This document shows, piece after piece, positions 24,151 through 56,962 of a stretch of DNA of 64,000 nt. Every line of letters begins with the position of its first letter. The stretch's first letter is position 1. Source of the stretch: Bacillota bacterium (GTDB lineage Bacteria; Bacillota; DTU025). The position numbers and the translations under genes were made by a program. The notes under the pieces are model-generated. The model saw nothing but the letters and a program-made list of their open reading frames with translations, was not told where the DNA came from and made no database searches. Location of the stretch: positions 3,087-67,086 of the forward strand of contig JAGVTS010000064.1 of the NCBI GenBank assembly GCA_019136685.1, written 5' to 3'.

Positions 24151-25168
24151 TACCGGCATTGTGGTGAGGCTGACCGGCGGCATCTGCTGGGTGCTCGCAG
24201 ACGCGGGCGGTGAGGCCGTACGCTGCGCTGCCCGCGGCAATGTCAGAAAACGCGCAGGCGGAGTGGCGGTGGGCGATCGCGTTCGCATATCCCGCGAGCC
24301 AGGCGGCGAAGACGGGGTGCTGGAAGAGGTGCTGCCCAGGCTGACGTATTTGATCCGCCCTCAAGTGGCCAATGTGGATCAGGCGATTGTGGTGATGTCC
24401 GTTGCCCGGCCCGAACCCAATCTGCATCTGCTCGACAGGCTGCTTGTGCTGGTGGAGCACTCACACTTGGACGCTGTGGTCTGCTTCACCAAAGCCGATC
24501 TGGCATGCCCGGGCGAAGGCGAACGCCTGGTCGATTCCTACTCCCGTGCAGGCTACAGGGCGATCCTAACGAGCGCCCGCGCGCGTCAGGGCATTCGCGA
24601 GTTATCCGCAGCGCTCGCAGGCAAGACGTCCGTATTTGCCGGGCCCTCGGGCGCCGGCAAGTCGGCGCTGCTCAACGCGGTTCAGCCAGGCCACAACCTG
24701 GCTGAAGGCGAGCTCTCCACGCGCATAGGTAGAGGGCGTCACACCACGAGAGAGGTCCGTCTCATCCCGTTGGACGTGGGAGGCACAGTCGCTGATACGC
24801 CGGGCTTTTCTGTCCTCGACATCGAGTCAATCAAACCTCGCGATCTCGCTACGGCTTTTCGCGAGATGCGCGAATACGTCGAGGGATGCAGGTTCGCTGG
24901 ATGTGTGCATGACGCTGAGCCGGAATGCGCTGTTAAGCAGGCGGTGGAGGAAGGCAAGATAGGGCAGGGTAGATACGAGCGATACTTGATGTTCCTGGAG
25001 TCTACAGCAAGCATGCCCAGAGAGAGAGGGTGTTGGCGTGGCTCAGCTCAAAGTGGCTCCGTCCATTTTGTCGGCGGATTTCGCGCGGCTTTCCGCGGAG
25101 ATCGGCAGAGTGTCGGCATCTGCCGACATGTTGCACGTGGACGTAATGGACGGAAGATTCGTTCCTAA
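24143..25168 (+). CDS. rsgA: ribosome small-subunit-dependent GTPase RsgA/CpgA
   Basis: Circularly permuted GTPase: G4 ...FTKADL, G1 GPSGAGKSALLNAV, DTPGF, C-terminal zinc finger CRFAGCVHDAEPEC. ATGA overlap with the prkC stop. The last ~43 codons overlap rpe out of frame. Confidence 0.85.
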   Translation: MYDTGIVVRLTGGICWVLADAGGEAVRCAARGNVRKRAGGVAVGDRVRISREPGGEDGVLEEVLPRLTYLIRPQVANVDQAIVVMSVARPEPNLHLLDRLLVLVEHSHLDAVVCFTKADLACPGEGERLVDSYSRAGYRAILTSARARQGIRELSAALAGKTSVFAGPSGAGKSALLNAVQPGHNLAEGELSTRIGRGRHTTREVRLIPLDVGGTVADTPGFSVLDIESIKPRDLATAFREMREYVEGCRFAGCVHDAEPECAVKQAVEEGKIGQGRYERYLMFLESTASMPRERGCWRGSAQSGSVHFVGGFRAAFRGDRQSVGICRHVARGRNGRKIRS

Positions 25169-25715: not shown

Positions 25716-25816
25716 CGTGCCATTCCTGCCGGGTCATTACAGAGGGGCCCGCGGGACCCGTGTGATATAATCATCCGTGCAGCTTGAGGGCTGTTTACCA
25801 GAGGGGAGGGTACGCC

Positions 25817-26419
25817 TTGAAGCTACCGGATGTGAATGTGAAACTAGTGGCGGCAAGCCTGGCTGTCGCCCTGGCTCTGCTTTTCGGAGGAAACGCGCTT
25901 GTTCGCATGACTAGAGTTTCGATTCCCGTGGAACGCGCGCTGCGACAGATGGCTGAGGTCAAGTCGTATTCGATTGAATCAACCCCATACGGCGCCGTGC
26001 TCAACGTCGAACTCGGCGATGTGTCGGAGCTTTCTGAAACAGTCATGAAGGTAACCATGGCCGCTGCGCATCTTGCCGGGCGAGACGGCGTATGGATACG
26101 CATTCTGGATTCCCGCGACGACACTCTACGGGACGTGTACCATCGTCTCCATTTCTCATTGCAGGAGGCCATAGCTACTGGTTCGTTCGAAGACCTAGAG
26201 CGCACGTCCGAGCAGTCGGCGCGCGAGGCGGGCATCTCGGGCGCCAGGATTGTGGTAGACTCAGAGTACGTATATGTGTCCATGTCACACGGCGCAAGCC
26301 GGCTGTACGAAGTGGTTCCCCGGCGGCCGTATGAAACCGGCGCCGTGACCGGCTCGACTTCGGTCGCGCGGTCCGATTCCCGCTCCTTTGGGGCCGCGGG
26401 AGGTGTGCGCATATGGTAA
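25817..26419 (+). CDS. hypothetical N-terminally membrane-anchored protein (about 200 aa)
   Basis: TTG 25817 preceded by GAGGGGAGGG. N-terminal TM (LVAASLAVALALLFGG). Stop overlaps the start of the downstream FtsH-like gene (ATGGTAA). No motif recognised. Confidence 0.45.
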   Translation: MKLPDVNVKLVAASLAVALALLFGGNALVRMTRVSIPVERALRQMAEVKSYSIESTPYGAVLNVELGDVSELSETVMKVTMAAAHLAGRDGVWIRILDSRDDTLRDVYHRLHFSLQEAIATGSFEDLERTSEQSAREAGISGARIVVDSEYVYVSMSHGASRLYEVVPRRPYETGAVTGSTSVARSDSRSFGAAGGVRIW

Positions 26420-27903
26420 GGGACATCGCAATCGGTGCATGGGCTGCGGCTCTGATCTTCTGTTTGATTGCCGGGTACGATCCGGCCCTGGTTGTGTTGG
26501 CCGGCGGGGTGGCTGCTCTTGCGCAATTGCTCCTGTCGGGGCGCATTGTCGGCCAGCGGTTTGAGTTCGCAGGACGAGCCTGCGCCGGGCAGAAAGCGCC
26601 CGCTCTGACCTTTGGAGACGTGGGAGGACAGGAGACTGCCAAGCGTGAGCTTGTAGAGGCCCTGGAGTTCATAAAGAACGAAGACACCGCGGTGCATCTG
26701 GGGATACGCCCGCTCCGCGGCATACTGCTGAGCGGACCGCCCGGCACGGGGAAGACTCTTCTCGCCAGAGCTGCCGCGAGTTACACGGATGCAGTGTTCG
26801 TATCCGCAGCCGGCAGCGATTTCGTGGAGATGTACGCGGGCATCGGAGCCAAGCGCGTGCGCGACCTGTTTGGCACGGCGCGCGCCACAGCAGTCGCTCA
26901 GCGCAAGAAGACGGCAGTCATATTTATAGACGAAATAGACGTGCTGGGCGGTGTGCGCGGCAAGCACTCCAGCCATCTGGAGTACGACCAGACCCTCAAC
27001 CAGCTGCTAGTAGAGATGGACGGGCTGGTGTCGGCATCTCGCGACGGGGTGAGAGTGCTGGTCATAGGCGCCACGAACCGCGCCGATCTGCTGGACCCGG
27101 CGCTGCTCAGGCCGGGCAGGTTCGACAGGGTAGTCAGTGTGGACCTGCCTGATCGTGAAGGACGCCGCCGCATACTGGAGATACACACCAAGCGGAAGCC
27201 ACTGGCGGATGATGTAGACCTCGGGCGCGTTGCAGCCGAAGCCTTCGGCTTCTCCGGCGCCTACTTGGAGAGCCTGACCAATGAAGCAGCGATCATGGCG
27301 CTGCGAGCCGGAAGGGCCCGCATAACCATGGACGACTTCTCCGAGGCGATGGAGAAGGTGATCATGGGCGAGAAGATCAACAGGCGCCCGGATGTAGACG
27401 AGCTGCTCAGAGTGGCAGTACACGAGGTCGGTCACGCAGTTGCGAGCGAACGGTTGAGGCCGGGCTCAGTGGCTGCGGTCACCGTATCGTCGCGCGGAAA
27501 GGCTCTGGGGTACGTGCGGCAGGCGCCGAAGTCCGACACATATCTGGAGACCCGTATGGAGCTGGAGAACAGGATGTCCACGTTGCTTGCGGGCGCTGTG
27601 TCGGAGGAACTGATCCTGGGCGAGCGTAGCACCGGGGCGGCGCAGGACATTGAACAGGCTGTGGAGACGGCGCGCAAGATCGTCAATTGCGGCCTGTCGG
27701 ACCTAGGGATAATCAGCGAAGAGGATATTCCGCGCGACAAATACCATGAGGCCATATGGCGCCTGGTGAGGGCGCAAGAAGACCGCACCCGGTCTTTGCT
27801 GGGTGAATACTCGGAGCTGATTCGGGAGATTGCCGGCGACCTCATGGATGCGGAGAGAATAGACGGAGACGCTTTCAGGGACCGGCTGGCCCGGACGGCG
27901 TGA
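26413..27903 (+). CDS. short FtsH-family AAA+ zinc metalloprotease paralog (N-terminal TM hairpin, no periplasmic domain)
   Basis: AAA Walker A GPPGTGKT, Walker B IFIDEID, second region of homology [21 protein letters not shown]41 zinc site HEVGHAV. Only ~50 aa precede the AAA module. Confidence 0.75.
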
Positions 27904-53440: not shown

Positions 53441-53537
53441 CGGAATCCATCGCGCCGTTCGTCGCCCTAACCCGACACCTTTCGGAGTGAGGGGGTGCTA
53501 CACTGAATACAATTGCGTAGTGGGGGGGGTGCCGCAG

Positions 53538-54437
53538 GTGATCCGCTTGTATGTCGACTCCCTGCTACTCCTGGCCGGCAGCACGTTCATCCTCGACCTG
53601 GTCACCTTGTGGGCTGTAAGGCAGATAGGCGGCGCGGGCGCGCCCAAAGCTAGATCCGGGCCCAGGCTGGCGGCTGGGGCCGGCTTGTCGACGGCAGTGT
53701 TCGTGGCCATGGCGAGCTTGGCACAGGCGGGGCTAGTCAGCCTGACGTCAGGCGTCTCGATTCTGGCCGCGGCGGCTGGAGCCGGCGCTTCGCTGATCCT
53801 GGCTTTCCCCGGGATGTCGGTGCGAGGCGCGGTTACGGCGTTTGTCTACCGCTCTCTCCTGACCGCGCTGGCCGGAGGCGCGGCGACTGCCGCATACTCC
53901 TTTACCGCGGGGAATCCGGCGGCCTCGTTCATCGCGGCCATCGCAACGGTGGGAGTGGTGGCCGAGGCCGGCTGGGGAGCAGTCCATCGCGGCATTCGCG
54001 ACGGGCTGTTCGTGGTTCCCGTCGACATCGATTTCGGCGCCGACCGTGTTTCGGTTCAGGCACTGATCGACACAGGCAATCGCCTGCGCGACCCGGCTTC
54101 CGGCAATCCCGTGATAATAGTGGAGTACGGCGCGATCGAGTCCGCACTGCCCTGGCAGGTCAGGGCAGCTTTAGCCAAGTCCGATGACGACTTCATGGCT
54201 CGGGCGCGGGCTGTCGCCGGTTCGACCTGGTCGTCGCGGTTCAGAGCCGTTCCGTACTCCTCCGTAGGCAGGGAGAAGGGGATGATGGTAGGCTTCAGGC
54301 CCGACCGAGTACGCGTGGCGGACGGCAGGAGAATGGTCACTACTTCGCGCGCTGTAGTATGCGTTCATACATCCGCACTATGCCCGGGAGGCAACTACCG
54401 GGCGCTGGTCAACCCGGATATCCTGACGGTCGCGTGA
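53538..54437 (+). CDS. spoIIGA: sigma-E processing aspartic peptidase SpoIIGA
   Basis: Five N-terminal TM helices and the catalytic [11 protein letters not shown] (D-T-G). GTG 53538 after a poly-G SD. TGcTACACT extended -10-like element at ~53496-53504. Confidence 0.85.
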
Positions 54438-54460
54438 GTCCACATGGGAGGCTTGCTCAG

Positions 54461-55189
54461 ATGGAGATGATTGAGAGAGCCCTCTGGATAGTACGATTGC
54501 TGCTCATCAAGCTCCTCGGCAGACTGGCTACGGCCGACGACTCAGTCTGTTACGTGGGGAGCCACGAGACGCTTCCGGCTCCGCTTACCCCGGACGAGGA
54601 GGCGTGCCTGATCGGCCGACTTATGGGTGGGGAGGAGGATGTCAGGGCAGAACTGGTGGAGCGCAATCTGAGGTTGGTCGTGTACATCGCCCGCAAGTTT
54701 GAAAGCACCGGAGTGGGCGTGGAGGACCTGGTGTCCATCGGTACCATAGGCCTAATAAAGGCCGTCAATACATTCGATCCGAGCAAGCGGATAAAGCTGG
54801 CCACTTATGCGTCCAGGTGTATTGAAAACGAGATACTGATGCACCTGCGCAAGACCAACAGAATCCGAAGCGAGGTATCATTCGACGAACCGCTCAACGT
54901 TGATTGGGACGGCAATGAACTTCTCCTTTCGGACGTGTACGGGACTGACGACGACCTGATATACCAGGCCATCGAGGAGGAAGTAGATCGTGCCCTGCTC
55001 AGCGAGGCTTTAGCCGCCTTGACCGGCAGGGAGAAGCGCATCATGGAGCTGAGATTCGGCTTCACAGGCGGGTCCGAAAAGACTCAGAAGGAGGTAGCCG
55101 ACCTGCTCGGGATATCGCAATCATACATATCCAGGCTGGAGAAGAGGATCCTGATCAAGCTGAGGCACCAGATAGTCAGGGCTGAGTGA
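54461..55189 (+). CDS. sigE: RNA polymerase sporulation sigma factor SigE (pro-sigma-E)
   Basis: Pro-sequence [22 protein letters not shown], then ...[57 protein letters not shown], near-identical to B. subtilis SigE. Confidence 0.9.
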
Positions 55190-55394
55190 GACGATCACTG
55201 CAGCAGTCGGCGGCACGTGCCCAAGTCGCGCCCGGTCGGGGGAAGATCCACCCGGCCGGGCGCTCCACTATCTTGACAGCCAATGTGTTTGCACTCAATT
55301 CGAATAAGTGCAACAGAATAAACGTCGAGCATCGGAGCAATACTCTTACTGGAATCCCGGCGACGCGAAGTCAAGATTGTGGGGTTGTTCCGAA

Positions 55395-56168
55395 ATGGCG
55401 CTGAACAAAGTTGAGATCTGCGGCGTCAATACCTCGAAGCTTCCGGTGCTCTCGAGCACGAAGATAAGGGAGCTTCTGGAGGCAGTGCGCGACGGCGATG
55501 AGGAAGCGCGTGACAGGTTGATATACAGCAACCTCCGGCTGGTGTTGTCGGTCATTCAGCGCTTCACCAACAGAGGCGAATACGTTGATGACTTATTCCA
55601 GGTGGGCTGTATCGGCCTGATCAAGGCCATCGACAACTTCGACCTGGGGCAGAACGTCAAGTTCTCCACATACGCAGTACCCATGATAATCGGCGAAATC
55701 AGAAGGTACCTGAGGGACAATAACCCGATCAGAGTGTCGCGATCCCTGCGCGACATCGCCTATCGGGCTCTGCAGGTCCGTGACAGGCTCGTCGCTGATA
55801 CCTCTCGAGAGCCAACGGTGACCGAGATCGCCGCCGCCTTGGGCCTCCCGCGCGAGGAGATAGTGTACGCCCTGGACGCCATACAGGAACCGATATCCCT
55901 CTTCGAGCCGATATACCACGACGCGGGCGATCCCATCTACGTAATGGACCAGGTGTCGGATGACAAGAACCTGGACGTCAACTGGCTTGAGGGCATTTCC
56001 ATCAAGGAGGCCATGCTGAGGTTGCCGGCGCGCGAGCGCCTGATACTCCGACTCCGATTCTTTGAGGGTAGGACTCAGATGGAGGTGGCCGACGAGATCG
56101 GGATTTCGCAGGCACAAGTATCTAGACTTGAGAAGGCCGCTCTGAAACAGATGAGGGCCTCGATGTAA
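55395..56168 (+). CDS. sigG: RNA polymerase sporulation sigma factor SigG
   Basis: MALNKVEICGVNTSKLPVL...LRLVLSVIQRFTNRGEYVDDLFQVGCIGLIKAIDNFDL...YAVPMIIGEIRRYLRDNNPIRVSRSLRDIAY..., near-identical to B. subtilis SigG. Confidence 0.9.
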   Translation: MALNKVEICGVNTSKLPVLSSTKIRELLEAVRDGDEEARDRLIYSNLRLVLSVIQRFTNRGEYVDDLFQVGCIGLIKAIDNFDLGQNVKFSTYAVPMIIGEIRRYLRDNNPIRVSRSLRDIAYRALQVRDRLVADTSREPTVTEIAAALGLPREEIVYALDAIQEPISLFEPIYHDAGDPIYVMDQVSDDKNLDVNWLEGISIKEAMLRLPARERLILRLRFFEGRTQMEVADEIGISQAQVSRLEKAALKQMRASM

Positions 56169-56182
56169 AGGAGGGTTACGCC

Positions 56183-56962
56183 ATCAAACACGAACTCGCT
56201 GTCAGGGTAATCACGTGCGCCGCAATACTCGCTCTGTCATTCGTATGCTTCATGGCCGCGACTGCTCGCCCTTCCGGAGCTAGGGCGCCTGAAGAGGCGA
56301 CGCCCGCCTACAACTCGGGGAACCTCATCAGGCTGCACGTCGTTGCGCCCGGCGACGATCCCCAGAGCCAGCGCCTGAAATTCGCCGTGCGCGACAGTGT
56401 GCTTGAGGAGACCGGCAGGCTCCTGCAATCGGCGGACGATGCGAATCAGGCAACCCGGATCCTTCGAGCAAACCTATGGCAGATAGAAGCGGCGGCCGAG
56501 GAAGCGGTGGCCAGGAGCGGCACTTCACATCGAGTGCAAGCCGCTCTGGGCACATTTTCTTTTCCGGGCGTCTCGTACGGAAACGCCTTGCTGCCGGCCG
56601 GAGACTACCTTGCTCTGAAAGTGGCGATTGGGCCCGCGTTGGGCGCCAACTGGTGGTGTGTGCTGTTCCCACCCCTGTGTCCGGTGGACCTGGAGAGGAC
56701 ACGCATCCTGGAGGTCGCTGCGACCGCGGGCGATTCCTCTGCCCCAGGTTGGCAGAGCAATGCCGGCGGGCGGCTTCTCACACTTGAACTGGCGATGCAT
56801 GCCGGACCTCTGGCCGGGGCCGTCGCCCGCAGAGAGGCCACGTTCTACCAGATCGCCACCGGTTCTCCGCGTCTGACTCTGGCCCAACTCACCTGGGAAA
56901 TTCCTGCCTGGGCCTGCCGTCTTCTGAAGTGGCCCCAGCTTCAGCAGGCACGCAGCCGGTAG
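56183..56962 (+). CDS. spoIIR: stage II sporulation protein R (SpoIIR), forespore signal activating SpoIIGA
   Basis: IRLHVVAPGDDPQSQRLKFAVRDSV and GANWWCVLFPPLC match SpoIIR hallmarks (B. subtilis IRLRILANSDSDQDQQLKRHIRDAV ... GANWWCVLFPPLC). First ATG is 56252, but the signal peptide (IKHELAVRVITCAAILALSFVCF) is encoded upstream with no canonical start. ATC 56183 lies 7 nt after AAGGAGGG. Confidence 0.8.
   Translation: MKHELAVRVITCAAILALSFVCFMAATARPSGARAPEEATPAYNSGNLIRLHVVAPGDDPQSQRLKFAVRDSVLEETGRLLQSADDANQATRILRANLWQIEAAAEEAVARSGTSHRVQAALGTFSFPGVSYGNALLPAGDYLALKVAIGPALGANWWCVLFPPLCPVDLERTRILEVAATAGDSSAPGWQSNAGGRLLTLELAMHAGPLAGAVARREATFYQIATGSPRLTLAQLTWEIPAWACRLLKWPQLQQARSR

What the first reader, a model, noticed from the sequence alone, without database searches (positions are those of the whole stretch)
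25817..27903. Translationally coupled pair: membrane-anchored unknown protein plus a truncated FtsH-family AAA-metalloprotease
The 496-aa protease has a complete AAA module and M41 HExxH site but only a ~50-aa N-terminal TM hairpin. It lacks the periplasmic domain of bona fide FtsH. Its start overlaps the stop of a ~200-aa N-terminally anchored protein with no recognisable domain (ATGGTAA). The arrangement suggests a dedicated adaptor/substrate-protease pair. SpoVK-like sporulation AAA proteins lack the protease domain, so this is not simply SpoVK.
Basis: partly seen in the sequence, partly recalled or inferred. Interest (0 to 1): 0.5.

Follow-up and report, generated by a model that had tools for sequence, protein, structure and literature searches.

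The report
Short FtsH protease with obligate partner
A shortened copy of the membrane protease FtsH, lacking its outer domain, is always encoded just after a small, unnamed membrane-anchored protein in many spore-forming Firmicutes, which suggests an undescribed two-subunit membrane protease.

Summary
A 200-aa single-pass membrane protein (25817-26419) ends in ATGGTAA. That sequence holds the start of a 496-aa FtsH paralogue (26413-27903) with a two-helix N-terminal hairpin, a complete AAA module and an intact M41 zinc site, but no FtsH_ext domain.

The pair is not a local oddity. At least 559 species genomes encode the short FtsH. In 87 of 87 loci examined, the partner gene lies directly upstream on the same strand. 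Stop and start overlap in 49 of these, and the gap is 30 nt or less in 24 more. Flanking genes vary (often rimO-pgsA upstream and cinA-recA-rny downstream), so only these two genes travel together.

The partner belongs to a family of about 730 sequence clusters. It has no Pfam or NCBIfam model, is always labelled hypothetical, and its confident AlphaFold model has no PDB relative.

A near-perfect extended -10 promoter (TGnTATAAT) precedes the pair in 75 of 86 loci.

Desulforamulus reducens carries both the pair and a canonical 68-kDa FtsH, so the short form is a second paralogue there.

Best reading: an obligate two-subunit membrane AAA+ protease whose partner probably supplies the missing extracytoplasmic module. 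Its topology, substrates and any role in sporulation are untested.

The parts
25761..25771 (+). Extended -10 promoter-like element TGTGaTATAAT (TATAAT at 25766-25771, TG at 25763-25764) with no -35 hexamer.
   Evidence: Sequence. A perfect TGnTATAAT occurs within 200 nt upstream of the partner gene in 65 of 86 loci, and TGn with one mismatch or none in 75 of 86. The consensus scan that requires a -35 found nothing.
25803..25810 (+). Ribosome-binding site GGGGAGGG, 6 nt before the TTG start of the partner gene.
25817..26419 (+). Partner gene: a 200-aa single-pass membrane protein of an unnamed conserved family.
   Evidence: The family has 730 clusters at E <= 1e-3, all about 175-200 aa. No Pfam or NCBIfam model matches.
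25829..25909 (+). Transmembrane anchor of the partner (residues 5-31), ending in the conserved LLFGG motif.
   Evidence: Hydropathy. Conservation.
25949..26326 (+). Soluble alpha/beta domain of the partner (residues about 45-170). Conserved motifs: D..R...L..YY..HF...EAIATGxF..MA and VDxxxVYVxL..G..YLYEVxPR. R169 is nearly invariant.
   Evidence: Alignments A2 and A3. AlphaFold2 model with pLDDT 88.7. No PDB fold relative and no PDB sequence relative.
26327..26416 (+). Low-confidence, variable C-terminal tail of the partner (residues 171-200), often containing a Gly-Gly.
   Evidence: pLDDT below 50 for residues 180-190. The tail is variable in the alignment.
26413..26419 (+). ATGGTAA stop/start overlap between the two genes (7 nt).
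   Evidence: Across 87 loci, 49 overlap (26 by 4 nt, 12 by 1 nt, 5 by 7 nt) and 24 have a gap of 0-30 nt.
26413..27903 (+). Short FtsH paralogue, 496 aa.
   Evidence: It scores 423 bits on TIGR01241, below the 600-bit equivalog cut-off.
26413..26541 (+). N-terminal two-helix membrane hairpin (residues 1-43) with the turn G21-Y-D-P. There is no extracytoplasmic domain.
   Evidence: The family consensus is M.kEi.iG...a.l.FL...G.d..P. No FtsH_ext hit in Pfam.
26722..27345 (+). AAA+ module and lid (residues 104-311): Walker A 108-115, pore loop M140-Y-A-G, Walker B D173/E174, and the second region of homology around R233-R239.
   Evidence: and the translation. The pore-loop Tyr is present in 82 of 83 family members.
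27409..27900 (+). M41 peptidase domain with H337EVGH341 (nt 27421-27435) and D412 (nt 27646-27648). It is about 20 aa shorter than T. maritima FtsH after residue 430.
   Evidence: HExGH is kept in 83 of 83 complete family members.

Best explanation
The two genes encode the two subunits of a second, specialised FtsH-type membrane protease found in a subset of mostly endospore-forming Firmicutes.

The 496-aa protein is the ATP-driven zinc protease. It sits in the membrane by a bare two-helix hairpin, with its AAA and M41 rings in the cytoplasm. By analogy with solved FtsH structures it is presumably a hexamer.

The 200-aa protein is a non-catalytic subunit made in fixed proportion by translational coupling. 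Its single membrane helix (conserved LLFGG) is proposed to pack against the protease hairpin. Its conserved alpha/beta domain is proposed to sit on the outer face of the membrane (N-in, C-out). There it would supply in trans the module that canonical FtsH carries between its two helices, for assembly, gating or choice of membrane-protein substrates.

The pair is its own transcription unit, driven by a housekeeping-type extended -10 promoter.

Shown here:
- both genes are real and conserved;
- the catalytic motifs are intact;
- co-occurrence was complete in the loci examined, and the start and stop codons usually overlap;
- the promoter motif is conserved;
- the short form coexists with a canonical FtsH in D. 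reducens.

Inferred, not shown: physical complex formation, stoichiometry, membrane orientation, and what the partner does.

The confidence given is for the whole statement, including the outward-facing orientation. That the two proteins work together as a dedicated pair I hold at about 0.8.
For: - Catalytic competence: AAA, lid and M41 domains are present. HEVGH and D412 align with the HEAGH and GAANDIERA motifs of T. maritima FtsH. HExGH is kept in 83 of 83 family members.
- No ectodomain: residues 1-43 are a hydrophobic hairpin with a four-residue turn, and Pfam finds no FtsH_ext.
- Obligate pairing, protease to partner: a partner HMM hits the ORF directly upstream, on the same strand, in 87 of 87 loci, with E from 1e-23 to 1e-62. 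These include 80 species from a scan in which at least 559 species genomes matched.
- Obligate pairing, partner to protease: the short FtsH lies directly downstream in every partner-based look-up.
- Coupling: 49 of 87 stop/start overlaps and 24 of 87 gaps of 30 nt or less.
- Only the pair is constant. CinA is downstream in 53 of 71 loci. In Paenibacillaceae, Alicyclobacillus, a Negativicutes MAG and some Clostridia the neighbours are unrelated.
- Co-inheritance: pairwise identities of the two proteins correlate, r = 0.76.
- The partner is a folded, conserved protein: about 730 clusters and a model with pLDDT 88.7 and pTM 0.78.
- Orientation: the 7-aa N-flank has a conserved Arg or Lys, net charge about +1.4 plus the amino terminus, against +0.7 over the 15-aa C-flank. 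The soluble part has no Cys in 78% of members. No partner-protease fusion appears among the top 150 family representatives, all 260 aa or shorter.
- Own promoter: TGnTATAAT in 65 to 75 of 86 loci.
- Second paralogue: D. reducens has Dred_0126, a canonical FtsH with FtsH_ext, as well as the pair.
Against: - No experiment or complex model links the two proteins physically. AlphaFold multimer was not available.
- Membrane orientation is ambiguous on a plain Lys+Arg count: 1.65 in the N-flank against 2.09 in the C-flank, and the C-flank has more in 50% of sequences.
- The partner shows no detectable sequence or fold similarity to the canonical FtsH ectodomain or to any known FtsH modulator. 'Replaces the ectodomain' is therefore an argument from architecture only.
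- Neither protein appears in the D. reducens proteome and surfaceome tables, although the canonical FtsH does. Abundance may be low, or expression conditional despite the strong promoter motif.
- A canonical FtsH could not be looked for in the window's own organism.
Confidence: 0.5

Rival explanations
1. The partner faces the cytoplasm (N-out, C-in). It would act as an adaptor or gate in the gap between the membrane and the AAA ring, delivering substrates to the pore or restricting their access.
For: The plain positive-inside count slightly favours the C-flank, 2.09 against 1.65 Lys+Arg. A helical stalk at residues 31-43 would hold the domain close to the membrane. The 25-residue linker of the protease leaves room for it (sequence). 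The pairing evidence fits this model equally well.
Against: A 7-residue N-tail carrying a conserved Arg or Lys and almost no acidic residues is a poor candidate for translocation. The soluble domain is Cys-poor. No fusions to the protease were seen, although N-out/C-in would make a fusion topologically easy.
Confidence: 0.2
2. The partner is the protease's dedicated substrate or a proteolytic switch, a membrane protein whose regulated destruction carries a signal. In this model the flexible C-terminal tail is the site where degradation starts.
For: The last 20-30 residues are low-confidence and variable. From established knowledge, FtsH needs about 20 unstructured terminal residues to begin degradation.
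Against: Making a substrate in fixed 1:1 proportion with its protease, by overlapping codons, across hundreds of species is unusual for a signalling substrate. The tail is the least conserved part of the protein, while the folded domain and the membrane helix are the conserved parts. The tail would also have to be cytoplasmic, which the favoured orientation does not give.
Confidence: 0.12
3. The short protein is simply this organism's only FtsH, a shorter housekeeping enzyme, and the upstream gene is an unrelated neighbour.
For: No second FtsH-like gene lies in the 64-kb window or in any fetched locus. The rest of the genome could not be searched.
Against: The protein scores 423 bits against the 600-bit cut-off of the FtsH equivalog model. 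It belongs to a distinct clade of roughly 495 aa sharing 53-75% identity. D. reducens has both the pair and a canonical FtsH. The upstream gene is present in 87 of 87 loci whatever the other neighbours are.
Confidence: 0.03
4. The pair is a sporulation-specific protease, switched on by a compartment-specific sporulation sigma factor. This follows the hypothesis of Garcia et al. 2021 for their paralogue FtsH(P2).
For: The window carries spoIIGA-sigE-sigG-spoIIR. Most named carriers belong to endospore-forming lineages, such as Desulforamulus, Thermaerobacter, Cohnella, Alicyclobacillus and Lutispora. Garcia et al. report that FtsH(P2) co-evolves with SpoIID.
Against: The conserved promoter is a housekeeping-type TGnTATAAT, not a sigma E, F, G or K type -10 (compared by eye with the B. 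subtilis consensus sequences). Whether this family is Garcia's P1 or P2 could not be established, because no supplement is held. To my knowledge, not tested here, the family is absent from Bacillus subtilis, so its spread does not track sporulation one to one.
Confidence: 0.1

Closest known systems
Canonical bacterial FtsH (M41 AAA+ zinc metalloprotease; TIGR01241; e.g. T. maritima 2CE7/7TDO, E. coli 7VHP)
   Same: The AAA module, lid and M41 domain are the same. HExxH plus the Asp ligand, the N-terminal membrane anchor and the cytoplasmic catalytic part are all present. PDB matches have E from 1e-83 to 1e-97.
   Different: It has no 70-100 aa extracytoplasmic FtsH_ext domain between the two helices. 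The pore-loop aromatic residue is Tyr rather than Phe. The M41 domain has a deletion of about 20 aa. It scores below the equivalog cut-off. It sits in a different genomic place and always has an upstream partner gene.
FtsH with HflK/HflC, or other SPFH-family modulators
   Same: The concept is the same: membrane-anchored accessory proteins with extracytoplasmic domains that associate with FtsH and modulate substrate access.
   Different: The partner has no Band 7/SPFH domain and no other Pfam domain. It is much smaller, has a different predicted fold, and is genetically inseparable from its protease, which HflKC is not.
FtsH(P1) and FtsH(P2) paralogues of Firmicutes (Garcia et al. 2021, Mol Biol Evol, PMC8136486)
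   Same: That comparative-genomics paper recognises FtsH paralogue subfamilies in Firmicutes. It speculates that P2 is a sporulation protease because it co-evolves with SpoIID.
   Different: In the text that could be read (the passages that mention FtsH), the paper describes no partner gene, no loss of the ectodomain and no promoter. Whether the present family equals P1 or P2 could not be checked, because no supplement is held.
Mitochondrial i-AAA protease Yme1
   Same: Both are M41 AAA+ proteases with a reduced membrane anchor. From my recollection of the literature, both also have a Tyr in pore loop 1. The PDB match to 6AZ0 has E = 1.8e-77.
   Different: Yme1 is eukaryotic, has a single helix and faces the intermembrane space. 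No equivalent of the partner protein is known for it.
SpoVK (sporulation AAA ATPase)
   Same: Both are AAA+ proteins of spore-formers.
   Different: SpoVK has no membrane anchor and no M41 domain. The window protein has both.

Membership tests
FtsH family (AAA+ / peptidase M41) | AAA+ module with Walker A, Walker B and the second region of homology | tested here: met
   PF00004 E = 1.1e-36 and AAA_lid_3 E = 2.2e-11. [12 protein letters not shown] and RPGRFDR are present in the translation.
FtsH family (AAA+ / peptidase M41) | C-terminal M41 domain with HExxH and a third zinc ligand (Asp) | tested here: met
   PF01434 E = 1.4e-26. HEVGH aligns with HEAGH, and GAAQDIEQA aligns with GAANDIERA of T. 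maritima FtsH. HExGH is kept in 83 of 83 relatives.
FtsH family (AAA+ / peptidase M41) | N-terminal membrane anchor of two helices | tested here: met
   Hydrophobic block at residues 1-43 with the conserved turn G-x-D-x-x-P. This rests on hydropathy only. No dedicated topology predictor was available.
Canonical FtsH (equivalog TIGR01241 / NF008004) | Extracytoplasmic FtsH_ext domain (PF06480) between the two helices | tested here: not met
   No PF06480 hit at E <= 1. Only about four residues lie between the helices. D. reducens Dred_0126 does have PF06480.
Canonical FtsH (equivalog TIGR01241 / NF008004) | Score above the curated whole-protein cut-off | tested here: not met
   423.1 bits against a cut-off of 600, and 289 bits against a cut-off of 1008.
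Canonical FtsH (equivalog TIGR01241 / NF008004) | Being the sole or housekeeping FtsH of the genome | tested here: inconclusive
   This is not testable for the window's organism, since no other FtsH lies in the 64 kb. In D. reducens MI-1 the pair coexists with canonical Dred_0126.
SpoVK-type sporulation AAA ATPase | Soluble AAA-only protein without a protease domain | tested here: not met
   An M41 domain and a membrane hairpin are both present.
SPFH/Band 7 FtsH modulators (HflK/HflC, stomatin-like), tested for the partner | Band 7 / SPFH domain | tested here: not met
Anti-phage defence systems (PADLOC) | Match to a defence-system protein model beyond a generic AAA hit | tested here: not met
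   The partner has no hit. The protease has only generic AAA hits (IetA 1e-30, TRIP13), far weaker than its FtsH matches. The gene context is core genome.
FtsH(P2) of Garcia et al. 2021 | Membership of that paper's paralogue cluster and its SpoIID-like phyletic profile | not testable with these tools
   The paper's supplementary tables are not held. Only the main-text statement is available.

The most novel reading that the evidence does not exclude
The pair is a 'split' FtsH machine. A separate single-pass protein, with a fold that has no solved relative, forms the extracytoplasmic crown of a hexameric AAA+ protease that has lost its own ectodomain. This would be a previously undescribed class of obligate subunit for membrane AAA+ proteases. 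It would be confined to (mostly endospore-forming) Firmicutes, and might couple events outside the membrane, in the cell wall or the spore intermembrane space, to ATP-dependent degradation of membrane proteins.
Probability: 0.35. Interest if true: 0.7.

Novelty: new variant of a known kind. Interest (0 to 1): 0.55.

Why it matters
FtsH is the only membrane-bound ATP-dependent protease of bacteria, and how it selects membrane substrates is still debated. Here the ectodomain has been lost, and in every locus examined a separate, uncharacterised protein accompanies the enzyme, across at least 559 species.

If the two proteins form a complex, it would be a natural experiment on what the ectodomain is for. 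It would also define a new accessory-subunit family, give a function to about 730 clusters of hypothetical proteins, and name a module that annotation pipelines now call only 'AAA family ATPase' plus 'hypothetical protein'.

The system is directly testable in cultured carriers such as Desulforamulus reducens, Cohnella, Alicyclobacillus herbarius and Anoxybacter fermentans.

Tried and rejected
- The first AlphaFold run used only 10 close homologues and gave pLDDT 54, which was unusable. It was redone with 131 sequences.
The large co-occurrence test was therefore run from the protease side. The partner side was checked with four single look-ups.
- A partner profile searched against PDB sequences found only a de novo designed protein, at E = 0.0017.
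- Rfam found nothing in the leader region.
- The sigma-70 scan that requires a -35 found nothing. The promoter is of the extended -10 type.
- PADLOC gave only generic AAA hits.
- Literature searches for the pair, for locus tags and for FtsH lacking the periplasmic domain found no characterisation.
- The D. reducens proteome and surfaceome tables were checked as a topology test, but neither protein was detected.
- I compared the conserved TATGT(C/A)AAC element by eye with the LexA, CtsR, Spo0A, Rex, WalR and DnaA consensus sequences. None fits convincingly.
- The long antisense ORFs over the region (for example 25795-26976 on the minus strand) were set aside as probable by-products of high G+C content. 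This was a judgement, not a test.
Full report
**1. What is in the window**

The region lies in a high-G+C (about 62%) Firmicute-type chromosome segment. The gene order is a penicillin-binding protein, the PASTA kinase PrkC, RsgA, Rpe, then the two genes of the finding, then CinA, a 2'-5' RNA ligase-like protein, RecA, RecX and RNase Y. Downstream come YmdB, the cell-division and cell-wall cluster, and spoIIGA-sigE-sigG-spoIIR. The organism therefore has endospore genes.

The first gene starts at TTG 25817, behind the ribosome-binding site GGGGAGGG, and stops at TAA 26417-26419. The second starts at ATG 26413 inside ATGGTAA and ends at 27903. Public gene callers give the same boundaries on independent assemblies.

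**2. The protease**

- Pfam finds AAA (104-244), the AAA lid (267-311) and Peptidase_M41 (333-436), but no FtsH_ext.
- The FtsH equivalog model of NCBIfam matches residues 59-485 at 423 bits, below its 600-bit cut-off.
- Walker A, Walker B, the arginine-rich second region of homology and a pore loop M-Y-A-G are present in the translation.
- HEVGH and D412 align with HEAGH and with the Asp of GAANDIERA in the solved T. maritima enzyme. From the literature, that Asp is the third zinc ligand.
- About 20 residues of the M41 domain are missing after residue 430.
- Residues 1-43 are one hydrophobic block that reads as two helices joined by G-Y-D-P. This turn is conserved across the family as G-x-D-x-x-P.

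The enzyme looks catalytically competent but exposes almost nothing outside the membrane.

**3. The protease family**

The 120 listed are nearly all full-length proteins of about 490-580 aa with 53-95% identity. They come from Clostridia, Limnochordia, Desulfotomaculia, Halanaerobiales and others, and are mostly named 'AAA family ATPase'.

Named carriers include Thermaerobacter, Thermovorax, Fervidicola, Tepidanaerobacter, Lutispora and Hydrogenispora. They also include the Bacilli Cohnella, Longirhabdus and Alicyclobacillus.

**4. The partner**

It has no Pfam, NCBIfam or PADLOC match. A simple search found only 14 relatives. An exhaustive HMMER search with a profile found 730 representative clusters at E <= 1e-3 and 459 at E <= 1e-10. 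The 150 best-scoring representatives, the only ones listed, are nearly all about 165-225 aa and matched over most of their length. Every named member is 'hypothetical protein'.

Conserved features:
- a membrane helix ending in LLFGG, followed by a Pro;
- the motif D..R...L..YY..HF...EAIATGxF..MA;
- a terminal hairpin VDxxxVYVxL..G..YLYEVxPR with a nearly invariant Arg;
- a variable tail of 20-30 residues.

With 131 sequences, AlphaFold2 gave a confident model, pLDDT 88.7 and pTM 0.78. It has a long helix (membrane segment plus stalk), then a beta-beta-alpha-beta unit, two helices and a three-stranded sheet.

**5. The pairing**

This is the main result.

- In five distant genomes looked up through the protease, a gene of 185-224 aa with no Pfam domain overlapped the protease start.
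- I then built an HMM of the partner and searched the six-frame ORFs of all 87 loci held: 80 from the species scan, six earlier loci (two of which show the same D. putei region) and the window. All 87 had a hit directly upstream on the same strand, with E from 1e-23 to 1e-62.
- Taking the start that best fits the family's N-terminus, 49 of 87 junctions overlap (26 by 4 nt, 12 by 1 nt, 5 by 7 nt as in the window). A further 24 have a gap of 0-30 nt. The remaining 14 have larger gaps or uncertain starts.
- Look-ups that started from partner proteins also found the short FtsH directly downstream.
- The flanks vary. CinA follows in 53 of 71 loci, with ThpR, RecA and RNase Y beyond. RimO and PgsA, or Rpe, RsgA and PrkC as in the window's clade, lie upstream.
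- In Paenibacillaceae and Alicyclobacillus the pair sits between tseB-like or ypmA-like genes and asnS or other genes. In some Clostridia and a Negativicutes MAG the neighbours are unrelated.
- Pairwise identities of the two proteins correlate at r = 0.76. The partner evolves much faster, with mean identity 24% against 55%.

Only these two genes are inseparable.

**6. Regulation**

Within 200 nt upstream of the partner gene, 65 of 86 loci have a perfect TGnTATAAT, and 75 of 86 have TGn followed by a hexamer with at most one mismatch. The anchored consensus is TATGnTATAAT with no -35. In the window this is TGTGATATAAT at 25761-25771.

This is the extended -10 form used by the housekeeping sigma factor, judged from the established consensus. 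It does not resemble the -10 elements of the sporulation sigma factors. The pair therefore appears to be its own, housekeeping-type transcription unit.

A second element, TATGT(C/A)AAC, follows the -10 in many loci by eye, though it did not reach the column-consensus threshold. It remains unexplained.

**7. Is it a second FtsH?**

No other FtsH-like gene lies in the window or in the fetched loci, and the rest of the source genome could not be searched.

In Desulforamulus reducens MI-1 the pair lies in the order rimO-pgsA-partner-short FtsH-cinA-deaD-recA. This matches the published tags Dred_1922 (CinA), Dred_1921 and Dred_1920. The same genome has Dred_0126, a 68-kDa FtsH with FtsH_ext, AAA and M41 domains and helices at 15-33 and 112-134.

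In that carrier, at least, the short form is an additional paralogue. Dred_0126 was detected in that study's proteomes. Tags 1923 and 1924 do not appear.

**8. Orientation of the partner**

The 7-residue N-flank carries 1.65 Lys+Arg and 0.29 Asp+Glu, including a conserved Arg or Lys just before the helix. The 15-residue C-flank carries 2.09 and 1.35.

Net charge and charge density favour N-in, C-out. The plain positive count is ambiguous. The soluble part lacks Cys in 78% of members. No fusion to the protease appears among the top family representatives. A fusion would be topologically awkward only if the C-terminus is outside.

I put N-in, C-out at roughly 60-65%.

**9. Mechanism proposed**

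The pair is an obligate two-subunit membrane AAA+ protease. The short FtsH provides the unfoldase and peptidase. The partner, made in fixed proportion, probably binds through its membrane helix and supplies an extracytoplasmic module in place of the lost ectodomain.

Rivals:
- a cytoplasm-facing adaptor or gate;
- the partner as a dedicated substrate, with its flexible tail as the site where degradation starts;
- a sporulation-specific role, which the carriers' lifestyle and Garcia et al. 2021 suggest but the promoter type does not support;
- the short form as the sole FtsH, which is unlikely.

**10. Comparison and novelty**

The enzyme meets the FtsH family features (AAA, M41, zinc site, two-helix anchor). 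It fails those of the canonical equivalog (ectodomain, model cut-off). One comparative paper recognises FtsH paralogues in Firmicutes.

I found no description of the partner, of the invariant pairing, or of the conserved promoter.

I classify this as a new variant of a known kind, of moderate interest. It is well supported as a conserved module, and its function is open and directly testable.

Noticed in passing
window 25761-25790; L007-L086, upstream of the partner gene: Many partner-upstream regions (not counted exactly) carry a conserved TATGT(C/A)AAC element 3-5 nt after the TGnTATAAT -10. The window's clade and some others also have (G)TATTACA(T) about 24 nt upstream of the -10. By eye, no known operator consensus fits (LexA, CtsR, Spo0A, Rex, WalR, DnaA).
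   Followed up: partly
window 24998/24999 (3' end of rsgA), compared with L089 2147-2222: Compared with another assembly that encodes the identical partner protein, the window lacks 36 nt that include the rsgA stop codon. The rsgA ORF therefore runs on to 25168, across the rpe start at 25038. This is either strain variation or an assembly artefact.
   Followed up: partly
window 53487-56962: spoIIGA, sigE, sigG and spoIIR follow ftsA and ftsZ at the end of the cell-division and cell-wall cluster. The source organism therefore has the core endospore regulatory genes.
   Followed up: yes
window 27700-27740 (short FtsH residues about 430-441): Relative to T. maritima FtsH, the M41 domain lacks about 20 residues between the CGLSD segment and the following helix. 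This explains why Pfam reports two separate M41 stretches.
   Followed up: partly
window 26830-26841 (short FtsH residues 140-143); all family loci: The pore-loop aromatic residue is Tyr (M-Y-A/V-G) in 82 of 83 family members. From recollection of the literature, canonical bacterial FtsH has Phe at this position and mitochondrial Yme1 has Tyr.
   Followed up: partly
L040 and L058: Two different contigs of one MAG (isolate AS09scLD_395) each carry a copy of the pair. Some genomes may therefore hold two copies, or the bin may be mixed.
   Followed up: no
L072, L078, L060: In a few loci the protease ORF can be read much longer (532-763 aa, depending on the start chosen), with the family motif further from the start. 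These may be N-terminal extensions or start-codon ambiguity in high-G+C DNA.
   Followed up: no
L041 and L082 record titles: Two carriers are labelled 'Betaproteobacteria bacterium' and 'Calditrichales bacterium'. Their loci have the typical Firmicute arrangement (for example PrkC-RsgA-Rpe-pair-CinA in L041). Mis-binning or mislabelling is likely.
   Followed up: no
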